Assembly (NCBI RefSeq): GCF_035697385.1
Contig: NZ_DASSCY010000201.1
Span: 22,462 to 86,461, forward strand
Source: Mycobacterium sp.
Lineage (GTDB): Bacteria > Actinomycetota > Actinomycetes > Mycobacteriales > Mycobacteriaceae
Direction of reading: 5' to 3'
DNA: 64,000 nt
Position 1 is the stretch's first letter, and every line of letters begins with the position of its first letter. Below are positions 26,054 to 32,521 of the stretch, piece by piece. Made by a program: the position numbers and the translations under genes. A model generated the notes under the pieces. That model was not told the origin of the DNA and did no database searches. It saw only the letters and a program-made list of their open reading frames with translations.

Positions 26054-26746
26054 GTGAAGGAAAGCACCGTGTCCCTCGAGCGGGCATTGGACGAGACCCG
26101 GACCGGAGACATCTGGCTGTTCCGTGGCAGTTCCGGACCGGACCGGGCGATCCAGACGATGAGCAACGCGCCGGTCAACCACGTCGGGATGGCCATCGCG
26201 ATCGAGGACCTGCCGCCGTTGATCTGGCATGCCGAGCTCGGCGACAAGCTGACCGACATGTGGACGGGGGGTAATCATCGTGGTGTGCAGCTCAACGACC
26301 TGCGCCTGGCCGTGGAGCGCTGGATCAACAACTACGGGCAGCGATGCTGGCTTCGTCAGCTCACGCCGTACGCCAACCGCGAGCAGGAAGACCGCGCACT
26401 CAAGGTCGTCGCCCGCATGGACGGCACACCATTTCCCAGCACCGCCCGGCTAACCGGTCGATGGTTCCGCGGCCGATTGCCAGGAGTCGCCGACTTCACC
26501 AGGGGAATCCCGTTCGTGCACAGCAAGGTTCGTGAGAGTACGCAACGCAGGAAGGCCGAGAAGCTGCAAGTCGGCCTGGAAACGGCCTATTGCGCGGAGA
26601 CCGTCGCGATCACCTACGAGGAAATGGGCCTGCTCTCGACAGAGAAGCACTACAACTGGTTCGATCCCGGCAAGTTCTGGAGTGGCGACGCGCTGCCGCT
26701 GGCGCAGGGATACCGGCTCGGCAACGAAATCGCCGTCATCCCATAG
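26054..26746 (+). CDS. Rv1118c-like protein, probable permuted papain-like (NlpC/P60, YiiX-type) hydrolase
   Basis: GDIWLFRG, PVNHVGMA (His) precedes AYCAETVAITY (Cys), then FDPGKF. Confidence 0.7.
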   Translation: MKESTVSLERALDETRTGDIWLFRGSSGPDRAIQTMSNAPVNHVGMAIAIEDLPPLIWHAELGDKLTDMWTGGNHRGVQLNDLRLAVERWINNYGQRCWLRQLTPYANREQEDRALKVVARMDGTPFPSTARLTGRWFRGRLPGVADFTRGIPFVHSKVRESTQRRKAEKLQVGLETAYCAETVAITYEEMGLLSTEKHYNWFDPGKFWSGDALPLAQGYRLGNEIAVIP

Positions 26747-29301: not shown

Positions 29302-29688
29302 TCACGCTGCAGCGGCGATGGCCTCGATCTCCAACTTCCACTTCGGGTCGAAGATCTGCGCGACGACGACAGTCAGAGCTGGACAGTGCTCACCGAGTAC
29401 CTCTTGCCTCACGGCAGTGTTGACCGGCGCAAGATCGCGGCTGCTCAGGAACGTCGTCACCTTGACAAGGTCGGTAACGCCCATCCCCGCCGACCGGAGG
29501 CAGGCCACGATGTGCTCCCAGACCAGGCGGCACTGATCCTCAGCGCTCTCGAGCACGACACCCGCCGGTGTCTCTGGAATCTGACCGCTGATGTAGAGCA
29601 ACCGCTGACCGGGCCCGACCTCCATCGCGTTGGTGTAGCCGCCGATCGCTGCCGGCACGCTGGCGGGGTCGTGAGGATGATGAGTCAC
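29302..29688 (-). CDS. RidA/YjgF family protein
   Basis: LYISGQIP, LVKVTTFL, PALTVV, LEIEAIAA; AAGGAG Shine-Dalgarno upstream. Confidence 0.9.
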   Translation of the reverse strand: MTHHPHDPASVPAAIGGYTNAMEVGPGQRLLYISGQIPETPAGVVLESAEDQCRLVWEHIVACLRSAGMGVTDLVKVTTFLSSRDLAPVNTAVRQEVLGEHCPALTVVVAQIFDPKWKLEIEAIAAAA

Positions 29689-29696
29689 GTCACTCC

Positions 29697-29721
29697 TTAA
29701 ACGTTGAAGCGGAACTCGACC
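29697..29721 (-). repeat. Displaced second copy of the ychF 3' end (VEFRFNV*), attR-like
   Basis: 29701-29721 matches 30330-30350 at 19/21 nt; all differences over the 8 codons are synonymous. Confidence 0.85.
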
Positions 29722-29729
29722 GGATCACG

Positions 29730-29993
29730 TCATCGATATGCGTCACGACGATGTGAAATATGGATGACACGGACGACGATTCGTTGGTCGAAAACCTGGT
29801 AGATAACCCGGAATTCGCCTCGCCGCGCCGAGTATCGCCCCTCCAGTTGATCGCGAAGCGGCTTGCCAACGCGATACGGATTCTCCGCGAGCGGGCCTCT
29901 AATGAACTCCCAACATGCGGCGGCGACTGCTTCGGGTAACAGTTCTGTCAGCGCCTTCTTCGCAGATTTTGTCAACTCAATGCGATAGGTCAC
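29730..29993 (-). CDS. relE: RelE/ParE family toxin
   Basis: NPYRVGKPLRDQLEGRYSARRGEFRVIY...HISHRRDAYR; similar to mycobacterial RelE; GTGA overlap with the antitoxin. Confidence 0.92.
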   Translation of the reverse strand: MTYRIELTKSAKKALTELLPEAVAAACWEFIRGPLAENPYRVGKPLRDQLEGRYSARRGEFRVIYQVFDQRIVVRVIHISHRRDAYR

Positions 29994-30274
29994 CGCCTGA
30001 GCCGCCCAGCGGCGCGCATCTCCTCTGTTACCTCATCGAGGGTGTACACCTCGCCGCTCTCTGATTCGGCCTCCGCATCACGCAACTCGCGCATCAACTC
30101 TTGATCACTGAGAATCGCCAGGGTCTCCATGATGGAGTCGAAGTCCTCCGCACTGAGAATCACAGCGGCCCGACGACCTTGTCTGGTGACCTCTATTCGC
30201 TCATGAGTGCGGACCGCCTCATCGACGAGTTTCGAGAGGTTCGCACGGACCTCTGCCAGCGGAAGAGTAGCCAT
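29990..30274 (-). CDS. relB: Phd/YefM family antitoxin (mycobacterial RelB type)
   Basis: LAEVRANLSKLVDEAVRTHERIEVTRQGRRAAVILSAEDF. Confidence 0.92.
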   Translation of the reverse strand: MATLPLAEVRANLSKLVDEAVRTHERIEVTRQGRRAAVILSAEDFDSIMETLAILSDQELMRELRDAEAESESGEVYTLDEVTEEMRAAGRLRR

Positions 30275-30287
30275 GTACAGAATTCTA
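30274..30287 (-). promoter_or_regulatory. Leaderless TA promoter: TAGAAT -10 with a TGTACA hexamer at the start codon
   Basis: ATTCTA at 30282-30287 is 7 nt from ATG; TGTACA at 30274-30279. Confidence 0.7.
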
Positions 30288-30325
30288 GCGCGATCGGCGG
30301 TACGGCCGCCTCTCGACCGTGACGA

Positions 30326-31399
30326 CTACACGTTGAAGCGAAACTCCACCACGTCGCCGTCGGCCATGACGTAATCCTTGCCCTCCATCCGGACCTTGCC
30401 CGCGGCCTTGGCTGCGGCCATCGACCCGGCCTCGACCAGGTCGTCGAACGACACGATCTCGGCCTTGATGAAACCCTTCTCGAAGTCGGTGTGGATGACA
30501 CCAGCGGCCTTCGGCGCCGTGTCGCCCTGGTGAATTGTCCAGGCGCGCGACTCTTTTGGGCCAGCGGTCAGGAACGTCTGCAGACGCAGCGTGTGAAAGC
30601 CCGCCCGCGCCAGCGCATCCAGTCCGCGTTCGGTCTGGCCGATCGACTCGAGCAATTCGGCCGCCGACTCGTCGTCCAGCTCCTGCAGCTCAGCCTCGAT
30701 CTTCGCGTCCAGGAACACTGCATCCGCCGGCGCGACCAGCTCCCGCAGCGCCGCCACCCGAGCGTCGTCGGTCAGCACCGCCTCATCGGCGTTGAACACA
30801 TACAGGAACGGCTTGGTGGTCAGCAGGTTCAACTCACGCAGCGCCGAAACATCAACTCCCGCCGCGAACAGTGTCTTGTCGCCGTTGAGAATCTCCTGCG
30901 CCGCCACCGCAGTCTCATGCACCGGCCGCCTGTCCTTGTTGGTACGGGCTTCCTTCTCCAGCCGCGGCAGCGCCCTCTCGAGTGTCTGCAGATCCGCGAG
31001 GATCAGCTCCGTCTCGATCACCTCGATATCGGACTTGGGATCGATCCTGCCGTCGACGTGTGCGACGTCGTCATCGGTGAAAACCCGCACCACCTGGCAA
31101 ATCGCATCGCTCTCGCGGATGTTGGCCAGGAACTTGTTGCCAAGACCAGCGCCCTCGGACGCGCCCTTGACGATGCCTGCGATGTCCACGAACGTCACCG
31201 GCGCAGGCACGATCTTTTCCGAGTCAAACATCTTCGAGAGCTCGGCCAACCGCGAGTCGGGCAGCGGCACGACACCCTCGTTCGGCTCGATCGTCGCGAA
31301 CGGATAGTTAGCCGCCAGCACGTTGTTGCGCGTCAACGCGTTGAACAGCGTCGACTTTCCGACATTCGGCAATCCGACGATTCCTAGGTTCATGCCCAC
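30326..31399 (-). CDS. ychF: Redox-regulated ATPase YchF (Obg family)
   Basis: GIVGLPNVGKSTLFN, NYPFATIEPN, DIAGIV, EGKDYVMADGDVVEFRFNV. Confidence 0.98.
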   Translation of the reverse strand: MGMNLGIVGLPNVGKSTLFNALTRNNVLAANYPFATIEPNEGVVPLPDSRLAELSKMFDSEKIVPAPVTFVDIAGIVKGASEGAGLGNKFLANIRESDAICQVVRVFTDDDVAHVDGRIDPKSDIEVIETELILADLQTLERALPRLEKEARTNKDRRPVHETAVAAQEILNGDKTLFAAGVDVSALRELNLLTTKPFLYVFNADEAVLTDDARVAALRELVAPADAVFLDAKIEAELQELDDESAAELLESIGQTERGLDALARAGFHTLRLQTFLTAGPKESRAWTIHQGDTAPKAAGVIHTDFEKGFIKAEIVSFDDLVEAGSMAAAKAAGKVRMEGKDYVMADGDVVEFRFNV

Positions 31400-31483: not shown

Positions 31484-32521
31484 GTGTCAGCACAGCGTGC
31501 ACGGTCGGCGGTGACGGCCGACCATCGCTCTGCGCACCCCAACTTTCCGGGTGTCCCGTGGTGGGGTGCTGTGCTGGTCGCCGTCACGGCGACCGCCATC
31601 GGCTTTGCTTATGACGCCGGTTCCGGTGCCAAAGAACTCAGCCTGGTTTTCGCGGCGTCGTACATGGTCGGCTGCATCGTCGCAGTTCTCGCGGTGCGGC
31701 AGAGCGGCGTCTTCACCGCGGTCATCCAGCCCCCGCTCATCCTGTTCGTCGCGGTGCCGACCGCGTACTTCCTGTTCCACGGCGCCGCGTTCACCGGTGT
31801 CAAGGACGCGCTGATCAACTTCGGCTATCCGCTCATTGAGCGGTTCCCAGTGATGTTTTTCACCTCGGCCGCCGTGCTGATTATCGGGATGGCGCGATGG
31901 TATTTCGGCATGTCGACGCGACGTGCGACACCGGGTACAACGGCCAAGGAGGCGACGAGCTCCAGCTTGACGTCGAAGGTGTCGTCGCTGCTGTCTCGGG
32001 AGCCTGCCGAAGAAGAAGACGAGGCCGTCGAGTCCCCGACTCGCAAGCACTCCATCGAGCGGTCCAGCCGCCGTGCAACGAAGCCTGCCGCTGACCAATC
32101 CACCCGCGCCGGCCGACCCACCAAGCGCGCCAGGCCTCCGCAGTCACGGCACGCGCGCCCTCCGGAAACGGAACTCATCGAACCGGTCGTCGAACGTCCC
32201 CGCCGGCCTCGCTCAGCCCGGCAGACCGAGCCACCGCCTGTGCCTCCCGCCGAACCGCGGCGCCGGCCACGCACCTCGTCGACCCGAGAGCCCCGGAAAA
32301 GGGTGCCGCCCGCCGACCGCCGCATCCCCAACGAGCGCACCGAACGTCGCCGCCGCTACGACGACTACCAGCCGTCCGAACCCCACGGCACCAACGGCAA
32401 CAGCACCCATCACCCCGTCTCGCGGGTGCGCTACCGCGGCGACGTGGACGACGCTGAGAATCGCACCCCCCGGCGGGCCCGACGCGATCGCGAACCCGAA
32501 CGCTGGGAGTACGACATCTAA
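31484..32521 (+). CDS. Rv1111c-like membrane protein (DUF6542) with Arg/Pro-rich tail
   Basis: GVPWWGAVL, FTAVIQPPLILF, LIERFP; TACGGT -10 6 nt before GTG; synteny. Confidence 0.8.
   Translation: MSAQRARSAVTADHRSAHPNFPGVPWWGAVLVAVTATAIGFAYDAGSGAKELSLVFAASYMVGCIVAVLAVRQSGVFTAVIQPPLILFVAVPTAYFLFHGAAFTGVKDALINFGYPLIERFPVMFFTSAAVLIIGMARWYFGMSTRRATPGTTAKEATSSSLTSKVSSLLSREPAEEEDEAVESPTRKHSIERSSRRATKPAADQSTRAGRPTKRARPPQSRHARPPETELIEPVVERPRRPRSARQTEPPPVPPAEPRRRPRTSSTREPRKRVPPADRRIPNERTERRRRYDDYQPSEPHGTNGNSTHHPVSRVRYRGDVDDAENRTPRRARRDREPERWEYDI

What the first reader, a model, noticed from the sequence alone, without database searches (positions are those of the whole stretch)
29697..30350. Minimal 629-bp relBE cassette integrated into the 3' end of ychF, flanked by att-like repeats
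Nine bp past the relE stop, the minus strand reads GTC GAG TTC CGC TTC AAC GTT TAA (VEFRFNV*). The real ychF end reads GTG GAG TTT CGC TTC AAC GTG TAG. The peptide is identical and all four differences are synonymous, with an identical 11-bp core (ACGTTGAAGCG). This is the attL/attR signature of site-specific integration that regenerates the target gene. The cargo is only a leaderless promoter plus relB-relE, tightly packed at both ends, and no recombinase is present in the window. Both copies contain GTT-N7-AAC, resembling tyrosine-recombinase core geometry (the spacers differ at 1 of 7 positions). As I recall, M. tuberculosis carries a different TA pair (vapBC32) directly after ychF, which would make this a reusable TA landing slot. 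Inference: an exchangeable TA micro-cassette mobilised by a recombinase acting in trans, or the fully reduced remnant of a ychF-targeting element.
Basis: partly seen in the sequence, partly recalled or inferred. Interest (0 to 1): 0.78.

Follow-up and report, generated by a model that had tools for sequence, protein, structure and literature searches.

The report
Stranded toxin-antitoxin cassette behind ychF
A 629-base toxin-antitoxin gene pair sits in a recombinase docking site at the end of the housekeeping gene ychF; across mycobacteria and relatives this site collects small foreign cassettes, and this one has no recombinase of its own.

Summary
The last 24 bases of ychF (30326-30349, minus strand) recur at 29697-29720, nine bases past the relE stop. 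Both encode VEFRFNV*, with four synonymous differences. The peptide occurs nowhere else in the 6.16-Mb genome.

It is one case of a genus-wide pattern. About 70 of 301 genomes carry 2-4 same-strand copies of the ychF tail behind ychF, boxing cassettes of 0.03-8 kb. Nocardia and other Mycobacteriales show the same.

- One LSR clade sits beside a ychF-tail copy in 8 of its 10 closest members; none of 20 more distant LSRs does.
- Attachment sites rebuilt from integrated elements, and intact sites on viral contigs, are ~52-bp imperfect palindromes centred one base inside GTSGAG.
- Both arms show the 5-bp outward shift that distinguishes LSR attP from attB.
- The 24 bases left of the window's displaced copy match these LSR arms (14/24, null P 0.0025).

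This genome has no LSR, so the cassette is probably stranded. Tyrosine-integrase elements also use the site. The vapBC pair after ychF in an M. tuberculosis-sized genome belongs to the same cassette family. No mobility test was possible.

The parts
30326..31399 (-). ychF (redox-regulated ATPase YchF), the target gene; intact, with the normal ...VEFRFNV* end
   Evidence: Pfam YchF-GTPase_C, MMR_HSR1. (NCBIfam TIGR00092, 421.8 bits against a cut-off of 279.2).
30326..30374 (-). Head site. It comprises the current ychF tail (24 nt, 30326-30349, GTGGAGTTTCGCTTCAACGTGTAG) and the upstream ychF arm GCCGACGGCGACGTG. It is attB-like: both arm motifs are in the inner position. The inferred crossover lies at G^T, 30348/30349.
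   Evidence: The motifs ACGGCGACG (-11..-3) and TTCAACGTG (+13..+21) sit in the attB register.
30275..30325 (-). Left end of the cassette. It contains the TCGTCAC motif directly after the ychF stop codon. It also contains the conserved promoter/operator ATCGCGCTAGAATTCTGTAC, with a -10 TAGAAT at 30282-30287, 7 nt before the relB ATG (leaderless layout). Palindromes AGAATTCT and TGTACA lie within it.
   Evidence: (C)GCTAGAATTCTGTACATG is nearly invariant in 15 relBE cassettes, while the sequence further upstream is not; a TCGTCAC-type motif recurs in WIN, L034, L067 and L098. The consensus sigma-70 scan found nothing, so promoter function is inferred.
29990..30274 (-). Antitoxin, Phd/YefM family ('relB'), 94 aa
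   Evidence: PF02604, E 3.1e-22. (TIGR01552).
29730..29993 (-). Toxin, RelE/ParE superfamily ('relE'), 87 aa. Its GTG start overlaps the relB stop codon by 4 nt.
   Evidence: PF05016, E 1.1e-7. Orthologues at 54-87% identity occur in 35 of 301 genomes, almost always behind ychF.
29721..29744 (-). Right arm of the cassette (P-type half-site), GACGCATATCGATGACGTGATCCG. It overlaps the last relE codons and the 9-nt spacer.
   Evidence: 14/24 identical to an LSR-adjacent P arm (null mean 8.0, P(>=14) = 0.0025). Sister cassettes score 15-19/24; the motif CGGYGACG sits 5 bp further out than in ychF; the same arm type occurs in attP of viral contigs.
29697..29720 (-). Displaced ychF tail, GTCGAGTTCCGCTTCAACGTTTAA. 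On the LSR reading this is the original ychF end of this lineage (B'), and together with the P arm it forms an attR-type site.
   Evidence: 1 mismatch to the degenerate tail consensus; the next best hit in the region has 7.
29302..29688 (-). RidA/L-PSP gene. Its Shine-Dalgarno sequence (AAGGAG) overlaps the stop codon of the displaced tail. It is therefore the probable original downstream neighbour of ychF.
   Evidence: PF01042, E 2.3e-19. The former adjacency is an inference from the sequence.

Best explanation
The 629-bp relBE unit is a recombinase-less cassette in a site-specific integration hotspot, the last 24 bp of ychF.

How the hotspot works:
- In Mycobacteriales this site is the attB of a dedicated clade of large serine recombinases (LSRs).
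- These LSRs are carried by 10-17-kb elements. The one whose genes I scanned (G078) looks like a phage satellite.
- The LSR cuts one base inside GTSGAG. Everything to the right of the cut in the distal copy is the old ychF end. Everything to its left is the incoming element's P arm.

How the window fits:
- The distal site is such an attR: a P arm (29721-29744) followed by the old tail (29697-29720) and then RidA.
- The tail now terminating ychF came in with the cassette. This explains the four synonymous differences.
- The head site is attB-like rather than attL-like. The most likely route is therefore that the cassette rode in next to an LSR element, which later excised precisely. This is accretion and mobilisation, as for CIMEs and pseudo-SCC elements.
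- This genome has no LSR, so the cassette is now stranded. Its addictive toxin-antitoxin pair probably helps it persist.

What is shown: the repeats, the hotspot, the LSR clade at the site, the att-site anatomy, and the arm homology.
What is inferred: that an LSR moved this particular cassette, and the route it took.
For: 1. The repeat is real and unique in the genome.

2. The ychF tail is a hotspot.
- 250 of 301 genomes of the genus match the tail pattern. About 70 (my count from the table) carry 2-4 copies, in the listed cases clustered on one contig and strand 30 bp to 8 kb apart. The reversed-pattern control gave about 25 hits in total.
- All well-matched displaced copies (up to 3-4 mismatches) in about 120 sequenced loci point the same way as ychF.
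- The pattern extends to Nocardia, Mycobacteroides and Mycolicibacter, with weaker single copies in Pseudonocardia and Actinomycetospora.

3. A specific LSR clade sits at the site.
- 8 of the 10 closest homologues (at least 45% identity) have a ychF-tail copy beside the LSR gene, at its 5' side (about 25 nt from the start codon in G083). None of 20 more distant LSRs does.
- The two checked, from G078 and G083, have Resolvase plus Recombinase domains.
- In G176, G083, G246, G078 and G097, ychF lies 10-17 kb from the tail copy beside the LSR. In all five, ychF has an altered C-terminus.

4. The att-site anatomy is that of an LSR.
- Reconstructed attP sites are imperfect palindromes (12-16 of 26 positions symmetric; 15-16 in three of the four) centred 1 nt inside GTSGAG.
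- Intact attP sites with the same centre (17/26 and 15/26) lie upstream of LSR homologues on viral contigs L229 and L230.
- Arm motifs lie 5 bp further out in P and P' than in B and B'. The scores are 6.0/9 and 5.07/9 at shift +5, against at most 3.55 and 2.9 at other shifts, apart from a secondary right-arm peak of 4.03 at +11.
- This is the published attP/attB rule for LSRs (PMC3783163).

5. The cassette arms match the LSR arms. Right arms of relBE, vapBC and other cassettes are 14-19/24 identical to LSR-adjacent P arms. The window scores 14/24, null P = 0.0025.

6. relBE behaves as a unit tied to this site.
- It occurs in 35 of 301 genomes, in single copy in 33 of them.
- About 27 of 30 loci are behind ychF or keep a tail relic.
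- It sits at different ranks in the arrays.
- The relE-to-tail junction is conserved or visibly decaying.
- relBE relatedness disagrees with ychF relatedness. L066 and L067 share 93% ychF identity but only 64% relBE identity. The Mantel test gives r = 0.19, p = 0.12.

7. G246 shows the predicted intermediate: ychF with an altered tail, an 11-kb LSR element, an attR, relBE, then a decayed tail.

8. This genome has no LSR.

9. Published work reports ychF as an integration site of LSR-encoding pipolins in Actinomycetota (PMC11551731).
Against: - No experiment or read data shows recombination.
- No strain-level empty site was found. Exact RidA and RelE proteins are not on record elsewhere.
- Canonical attP x attB integration should leave an altered ychF tail (attL). 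The window has a normal tail, so an extra step has to be assumed.
- The window's P arm is the weakest of the family (14/24), and part of it is constrained as relE coding sequence.
- About 20 displaced copies in other genomes have a ychF-like left arm instead of the P arm. The simple model does not explain these.
- Tyrosine-integrase elements use the same 17-21 bp. An LSR is therefore not the only candidate enzyme at this locus.
- Many displaced copies are decaying, which argues against ongoing selection for the sites.
Confidence: 0.72

Rival explanations
1. A tyrosine recombinase acting in trans inserted the cassette by strand exchange inside the shared core (the 11-bp identity, GTT-N7-AAC). 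Alternatively, the cassette is the deletion remnant of a tyrosine-integrase island.
For: - Intact tyrosine integrases (PF00589) lie 21 nt after the ychF stop codon in G091 and G178. The elements are 7.3 and 8.1 kb, with 21-bp and 17-bp identical repeats.
- A frameshifted copy occurs in G142.
- C-terminal relics lie directly after ychF in G050 and in Pseudonocardia kongjuensis.
- The window's two copies share an 11-bp identical run.
Against: - These elements carry a different attR arm (AAGCTNTGGCAAACNCCCAGC), and their identity starts at GAGTTCC. The window has neither feature (10/24, P = 0.2).
- The window's boundary (G|GTSGAG) and its arm match the LSR type.
- No homologue of this integrase is present in the genome.
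- No integrase relic lies between ychF and relB, which are only 51 nt apart.
Confidence: 0.12
2. No dedicated recombinase was involved. The duplication arose by homologous or illegitimate recombination. Examples are Campbell-type insertion of a circle through the short ychF homology, or insertion with long target duplication. It has since been inherited or exchanged by ordinary homologous recombination of the whole ychF-downstream region.
For: - Some displaced copies carry 30-45 nt of ychF-like sequence of variable extent.
- Many copies are decaying.
- The region lies between conserved genes (ychF and the LmeA/230-aa anchor), which could serve as recombination arms.
Against: - The boundary is fixed at G|GTSGAG.
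- A conserved non-ychF 24-nt arm is shared with LSR attP sites, including those on viral contigs.
- Both arms show the 5-bp register shift.
- LSR genes sit exactly at the site.
- 24 bp is very short for RecA-dependent exchange (own knowledge).
Confidence: 0.1
3. Chance resemblance, or a functional motif unrelated to recombination, such as a regulatory or translational signal for the downstream gene.
For: The displaced stop codon overlaps the RidA Shine-Dalgarno sequence.
Against: - The peptide and the 21-mer are unique to this locus in 6.16 Mb.
- The same arrangement recurs with unrelated downstream genes in dozens of genomes.
Confidence: 0.01

Closest known systems
SCC / SCCmec composite islands and ccr-less pseudo-SCC elements at the 3' end of rlmH (orfX) in staphylococci (own knowledge)
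   Same: - Large serine recombinases target the last codons of a conserved housekeeping gene.
- The element supplies a replacement gene end.
- Direct repeats of the gene end separate tandemly stacked units.
- Many units lack a recombinase and depend on one supplied in trans.
- NCBIfam gives weak hits of the ychF-clade LSR to CcrB, CcrA and CcrC (far below cut-off).
   Different: - The target gene (ychF), host group (Mycobacteriales) and LSR clade all differ.
- The units are far smaller (0.03-3 kb; here 629 bp) and often hold just one toxin-antitoxin pair or one small enzyme.
- The one LSR carrier whose genes were scanned in detail (G078) looks like a phage satellite (terminase, HK97 capsid).
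- Canonical insertions alter the YchF C-terminus through a 5-nt register shift.
Cis-mobilisable elements (CIMEs) and accretion-mobilisation of ICESt1/ICESt3 at the 3' end of fda in Streptococcus thermophilus (own knowledge; reviewed in PMC5704250)
   Same: - These are recombinase-less elements flanked by the att sites of an autonomous element at the same gene end.
- Tandem accretion occurs.
- Mobilisation in trans is proposed, either together with the autonomous element or by it.
   Different: - CIMEs use a tyrosine integrase and are several kb long.
- Here the matching sites are LSR-type, and the array is headed by an intact attB-like site followed by attR-type junctions.
Pipolins encoding LSRs integrated at ychF in Actinomycetota (PMC11551731); pneumococcal prophage at ychF (PMC6375853)
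   Same: ychF is a documented integration target of LSR-bearing elements in Actinobacteria and of prophages in Streptococcus.
   Different: - Those reports concern large autonomous elements.
- In the passages I read, the pipolin paper names ychF only as a site and does not describe recombinase-less micro-cassette arrays or the att-site anatomy.
- I did not find piPolB in the one element I scanned, and I did not search for it specifically.
Integron gene cassettes (IntI, attI, attC)
   Same: - There are arrays of small cassettes, often of a single gene and often toxin-antitoxin.
- All cassettes point the same way, next to a fixed primary site.
- The recombinase is not inside the cassettes.
   Different: - No integron integrase lies next to the site.
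- The sites are copies of a gene end plus an LSR half-site, not folded attC hairpins.
- The cassettes bring their own promoters.
Type II toxin-antitoxin modules of the Phd/YefM-RelE/ParE type (for example the M. tuberculosis RelBE pairs; own knowledge)
   Same: The cargo is an overlapping antitoxin-toxin pair with a palindromic operator at a leaderless promoter.
   Different: Its function was not tested here. The point of interest is how it is packaged and positioned, not the toxin-antitoxin pair itself.

Membership tests
Large-serine-recombinase integration system (att sites) | An LSR gene (Resolvase plus Recombinase domains) lies next to the attachment site in autonomous members | tested here: met
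   8 of the 10 closest LSR homologues abut a ychF-tail copy, against 0 of 20 distant ones. Domains of the G078 and G083 proteins confirmed. The window's genome itself has no LSR.
Large-serine-recombinase integration system (att sites) | attP is an imperfect palindrome of about 50 bp around a central dinucleotide | tested here: met
   Reconstructed attP sites score 12-16 of 26, centred at offset +1. Intact attP sites on viral contigs L229 and L230 score 17/26 and 15/26 with the same centre.
Large-serine-recombinase integration system (att sites) | The distal (zinc-ribbon) motifs sit 5 bp closer to the centre in attB than in attP (PMC3783163) | tested here: met
   Both arms peak at a +5 shift: 6.0/9 on the left (29 P arms) and 5.07/9 on the right (29 altered tails).
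Large-serine-recombinase integration system (att sites) | The enzyme catalyses attP x attB recombination at this site | not testable with these tools
   Needs an in vivo or in vitro assay.
Recombinase-less cis-mobilisable element (CIME / pseudo-SCC type) | Flanked by same-orientation att-type repeats, with no recombinase gene inside | tested here: met
   Only relB and relE lie between the repeats.
Recombinase-less cis-mobilisable element (CIME / pseudo-SCC type) | Its att sites are homologous to those of an autonomous element using the same target | tested here: met
   The P arm is 14/24 identical to LSR arms (P = 0.0025); sister cassettes score 15-19/24. The boundary is the same, at G|GTSGAG.
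Recombinase-less cis-mobilisable element (CIME / pseudo-SCC type) | Excision or transfer is shown when the recombinase is supplied in trans | not testable with these tools
Comparative evidence is indirect only.
Tyrosine-integrase island of the G091/G178 type | A 17-21-bp identical core starting at GAGTTCC, plus the arm AAGCTNTGGCAAACNCCCAGC at attR, with an integrase or its relic next to ychF | tested here: not met
   The window lacks the arm (10/24, P = 0.2). No integrase relic lies in the 51 nt between ychF and relB. The genome has no homologue of the integrase.
Integron cassette | An IntI integrase with attI next to the array | tested here: not met
   No PF00589 hit on the window's contig. 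The genes flanking the array are ychF/DUF6542 on one side and LmeA plus a 230-aa protein on the other.
Integron cassette | A folded attC site at the cassette's 3' end | not tested
   The site is a copy of the ychF end plus an LSR-type arm. I did not fold it.
Type II toxin-antitoxin, Phd/YefM-RelE/ParE | An adjacent or overlapping antitoxin and toxin pair with family domain matches | tested here: met
   PF02604 (E 3.1e-22) and PF05016 (E 1.1e-7). The genes overlap by 4 nt.
Type II toxin-antitoxin, Phd/YefM-RelE/ParE | Toxicity that the antitoxin neutralises | not testable with these tools
   Needs expression assays.

The most novel reading that the evidence does not exclude
The ychF 3' end of Mycobacteriales may work as an integron-like gene-capture platform driven by a serine recombinase.

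On this reading:
- Promoter-bearing micro-cassettes hold toxin-antitoxin pairs, VOC/glyoxalase enzymes, SDR enzymes, SnoaL-like proteins and the like.
- They end in hybrid attR-type sites.
- LSRs carried by phage satellites, with or without a directionality factor, supply the activity in trans to capture, stack, reshuffle and export them.

This would make one physical route for the spread of toxin-antitoxin modules in mycobacteria directly testable. The cassette family includes vapBC32 of M. tuberculosis.
Probability: 0.3. Interest if true: 0.8.

Novelty: new variant of a known kind. Interest (0 to 1): 0.62.

Why it matters
Mycobacteria are known for very large toxin-antitoxin repertoires, and how these modules move between genomes is poorly understood.

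- Here a toxin-antitoxin pair is packaged as a 629-bp unit with defined ends, and those ends match the attachment half-site of a specific serine recombinase.
- The same docking site holds other toxin-antitoxin pairs and small enzymes in dozens of species.
- These include the vapBC pair next to ychF in a genome of M. tuberculosis size.
- This gives a concrete enzyme-and-site hypothesis that ordinary integration and excision assays in Mycolicibacterium smegmatis can test.
- It also defines a new serine-integrase/attB pair at a conserved gene, which could serve as a mycobacterial integration tool.
- Canonical insertions replace the last two YchF residues with an 8-12-residue extension in about a quarter of the genomes sampled. 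YchF evidently tolerates this.

Tried and rejected
- **Chance.** Rejected: the peptide and 21-mer are unique in the genome, and the reversed-pattern control is low.
- **Purely vertical inheritance of relBE.** Weakened: the relBE and ychF identity matrices disagree.
- **Tyrosine integrase as the agent.** This was my first reading after finding integrases abutting ychF. I dropped it for this cassette once the arms and boundary matched the LSR type.
- **Integron.** No IntI lies nearby.
- **Serine recombinase inside the arrays.** Pfam tallies of 175 cargo ORFs listed none among the 25 most frequent families, and ten long ORFs scanned individually had none. LSRs were found only after cross-referencing a genus-wide PF07508 search with the tail positions.
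- **Strain-level empty site.** Exact-protein look-ups for RidA and RelE found nothing. No genome in about 120 loci has RidA next to ychF.
- **Older decayed tail relics** between RidA/beta-lactamase and LmeA in the window. None found; the best has 7 mismatches.
- **Consensus promoter and terminator scan** of the cassette. No hits.
- **Viral-contig search with a single LSR.** Nothing. It succeeded with an alignment.
- **Xer/dif involvement.** Considered but not tested.
Full report
**The observation**

The window holds, on the minus strand, four genes in a row:
- ychF (30326-31399)
- a Phd/YefM antitoxin (29990-30274)
- a RelE/ParE toxin (29730-29993), overlapping the antitoxin by 4 nt
- a RidA/L-PSP gene (29302-29688)

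The ychF end GTGGAGTTTCGCTTCAACGTGTAG (30326-30349) recurs as GTCGAGTTCCGCTTCAACGTTTAA at 29697-29720, nine bases after the relE stop codon. The four differences are synonymous, and an 11-bp run is identical. The stop codon of the displaced copy overlaps the RidA ribosome-binding site.

VEFRFNV occurs only twice in all six frames of the 6.16-Mb assembly. The 21-mer with up to 3 mismatches occurs only at these two places. The only correction is the exact coordinates.

**A genus-wide hotspot**

Twenty same-genus relatives were fetched and oriented on ychF.
- Twelve of the 21 loci (the window included) carry one or two extra copies of the ychF tail downstream.
- Every clear extra copy (up to 4 mismatches) is in the ychF orientation; the only minus-strand hits, at 5 mismatches, are noise level.

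A degenerate tail pattern was searched in 301 genomes of the genus.
- 250 genomes match it.
- About 70 (my count from the table) have 2-4 copies. In the listed cases they lie on one contig and strand, 30 bp to 8 kb apart.
- A reversed-pattern control gave about 25 hits in total.

Named loci show the same arrays in Nocardia, Mycobacteroides and Mycolicibacter. Single displaced copies with 2-3 mismatches occur in Pseudonocardia and Actinomycetospora.

Two further points:
- The region between ychF and a conserved LmeA/230-aa gene pair varies from about 0.75 to more than 8 kb.
- Cargo is mostly small enzymes and regulators: VOC/glyoxalase, SDR, alpha/beta-hydrolase, methyltransferase, TetR, SnoaL. 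It also includes toxin-antitoxin pairs of the ParE/RelE, PIN/VapB, HigB and Phd types.

**The relBE unit**

- Orthologues of this RelE occur in 35 of 301 genomes, in single copy in 33 of them.
- About 27 of 30 loci are behind ychF or keep a tail relic.
- They sit at different ranks in the arrays. The unit is first after ychF in the window, third in G001, and after an LSR element in G246.
- The promoter/operator GCTAGAATTCTGTACATG is almost invariant.
- The junction 'relE stop, 9 nt, tail' is conserved or visibly decaying in most loci.
- relBE similarity does not follow ychF similarity. L066 and L067 share 93% ychF identity but 64% relBE identity. L067 and L102 share 80% ychF identity but 86% relBE identity. 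The Mantel test gives r = 0.19, p = 0.12. This argues for exchange between lineages.

**Which recombinase**

Two kinds of autonomous element occupy the same 24 bp.

(a) Tyrosine-integrase elements.
- In G091 and G178 the elements are 7.3 and 8.1 kb. The integrase ends 21 nt after the ychF stop codon, and the repeats are identical over 21 and 17 bp.
- Decayed copies occur in G142 and G050, in one metagenome-assembled genome (L080), and in Pseudonocardia kongjuensis.
- Their attR arm is AAGCTNTGGCAAACNCCCAGC.

(b) Large-serine-recombinase (LSR) elements.
- Earlier notes of this scan and a paper reporting LSR-pipolins at ychF in Actinomycetota prompted a direct test.
- I cross-referenced a genus-wide PF07508 search with the tail positions. 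LSR genes turned up next to tail copies in G246, G097, G176, G078 and G083.
- A search with the G078 LSR showed that 8 of its 10 closest homologues (at least 45% identity) have a tail copy beside the LSR gene at its 5' side. None of 20 more distant LSRs does.
- The G078 and G083 proteins have Resolvase and Recombinase domains. The G078 element also carries a large terminase, an HK97-type capsid protein and Abi_alpha.
- In the five genomes, ychF lies 10-17 kb from the LSR-side tail copy and has an altered C-terminus.

**Attachment-site anatomy**

- I joined the arms from attL and attR. The resulting attP sites are imperfect palindromes (12-16 of 26 positions symmetric; 15-16 in three of the four) centred one base inside GTSGAG.
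- The same structure exists intact on viral contigs upstream of LSR homologues. L229 scores 17/26 and L230 scores 15/26, with the same centre.
- The altered YchF tails (VEFRF-GSTSTSK..., -GTTSGGKAAAK..., VEFRH-GATTKP...) are found in 29 of 118 loci.
- At the DNA level they are the native tail with a 5-nt insertion (CGSTTC|GGAWC|AACGTC). The distal motif is therefore moved 5 bp outward and the reading frame shifts.
- Quantified:

| Arm | Motif | Sequences | Score at +5 | Best at other shifts |
|---|---|---|---|---|
| Right | TTCAACGTG | 29 altered tails | 5.07/9 | 2.9 (secondary peak 4.03 at +11) |
| Left | ACGGCGACG | 29 P arms | 6.0/9 | 3.55 |

- This 5-bp register difference between attP and attB half-sites is the published hallmark of serine integrases (PMC3783163).

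**The window's cassette in this frame**

- Similarity between the two copies starts exactly at G|GTSGAG, the LSR boundary.
- The 24 nt to the left of the displaced copy (29721-29744) belong to a conserved arm family, GACGTTNWTCGGYRACGNNAWYNYG. This family ends relBE, vapBC and other cassettes, and it also flanks the LSR genes.
- Identity to LSR-adjacent arms is 14/24 for the window and 15-19/24 for sister cassettes. The null mean is 8.0, with P(>=14) = 0.0025.
- The distal site is therefore an attR: a P arm followed by the old ychF end, then RidA.
- The tail now closing ychF came in with the cassette. That accounts for the four synonymous differences without needing a crossover inside the 11-bp identity.

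**The open step**

The head site is attB-like (normal tail), not attL-like. Simple attP x attB insertion of the cassette alone does not explain this.

The most economical route is accretion and mobilisation. The cassette lay distal to an LSR element, moved or persisted with it, and the LSR element then excised precisely. G246 shows the predicted intermediate: ychF with an altered tail, an 11-kb LSR element, an attR, relBE, then a decayed tail. This route is inferred, not shown.

About 20 displaced copies elsewhere have ychF-like left arms and remain unexplained.

**Present state**

- The genome has no LSR.
- It has no homologue of the ychF-type tyrosine integrase.
- It has four other tyrosine recombinases and two small resolvase-domain ORFs, all on other contigs.
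- The cassette is therefore most likely stranded.
- Many sister copies are decaying, so the distal sites do not look strongly maintained.

**The M. tuberculosis recall**

- An unnamed single-contig genome of 4,411,532 bp, the size I recall for H37Rv, has ychF at 1,238,258-1,239,325. A 65-aa VapB-like gene and a 124-aa PIN/VapC gene follow directly.
- No displaced tail survives within 2.2 kb.
- The pair is 66% identical at the DNA level to the G001 vapBC cassette, which still ends in a P arm plus tail.

**Comparison with known systems**

- Functionally the closest are SCC/pseudo-SCC composite islands at rlmH and CIME accretion at fda. Integrons resemble the arrays in cassette size only.
- ychF as an LSR target in Actinomycetota has been reported for pipolins, and for a pneumococcal prophage.
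- I found no paper describing recombinase-less micro-cassette arrays at ychF or their att anatomy.
- Earlier notes of this scan report the same phenomenon in other genomes.
- I rate it a new variant of a known kind.

**Limits**

- No recombination was observed.
- No same-species genomes were available.
- The count of about 70 multi-copy genomes is my manual tally.

Noticed in passing
L058 (G121) 0..+163; L057 (G119) +824..+1009; L059 (G221) 0..+109, relative to the ychF stop codon: Very short cassettes (130-190 bp) lie between two tail copies. They contain no ORF, only a near-perfect palindrome of about 70 nt (for example CGCAATGTTCCGCTGACAGC...GCTGTCAGCGGAACATTGCG around a TATATAT centre), followed by the usual P arm. 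This could be an operator remnant, a small RNA or a structural element.
   Followed up: no
ychF 3' ends in 29 of 118 loci (for example L032, L033, L045, L048-L050, L084, L107, L113, L141): YchF ends in an 8-12-residue extension (VEFRF-GSTSTSK..., -QTTSGGKAAAK..., VEFRH-GATTKP...) instead of NV*. It is conserved between Mycobacterium and Nocardia. It corresponds to the LSR P' half-site (the native tail plus a 5-nt insertion). Many of these genomes no longer have any LSR.
   Followed up: partly
window 26054-26746 (+): A 230-aa protein (MKESTVSLERALDETRTGDIWLFRG...) with no Pfam match is conserved at 71-86% identity in most relatives. It marks the far edge of the variable region behind ychF.
   Followed up: no
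G017:C1:9154-12225: This genome has two ychF copies about 1 kb apart. The upstream copy is broken into three frames with a TGA stop. It may be a larger duplication at the same hotspot or an assembly artefact.
   Followed up: no
L222 (G083:C1:1849400-1866500): The 17-kb element at ychF carries a tyrosine integrase at its ychF-proximal end and an LSR at its distal end, plus an IS3-type transposase pair and an AAA_25 protein. It is probably two elements stacked together.
   Followed up: no
G000 contig C125:874-4132: The window's own genome has two tyrosine-recombinase genes and a resolvase-domain ORF within about 3.3 kb on another contig. This is an unrelated recombinase cluster or mobile element.
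   Followed up: no
L060 (G133) +521/+551; L131 and L133 (Nocardia) at 0; L067 at -5: Tail copies lie directly in tandem, 18-30 bp apart, with nothing between them. They may be empty junctions or products of cassette loss.
   Followed up: no
window 31484-32521 (+): A DUF6542 membrane protein lies upstream of ychF. It has a long arginine/proline-rich, low-complexity C-terminal half.
   Followed up: no
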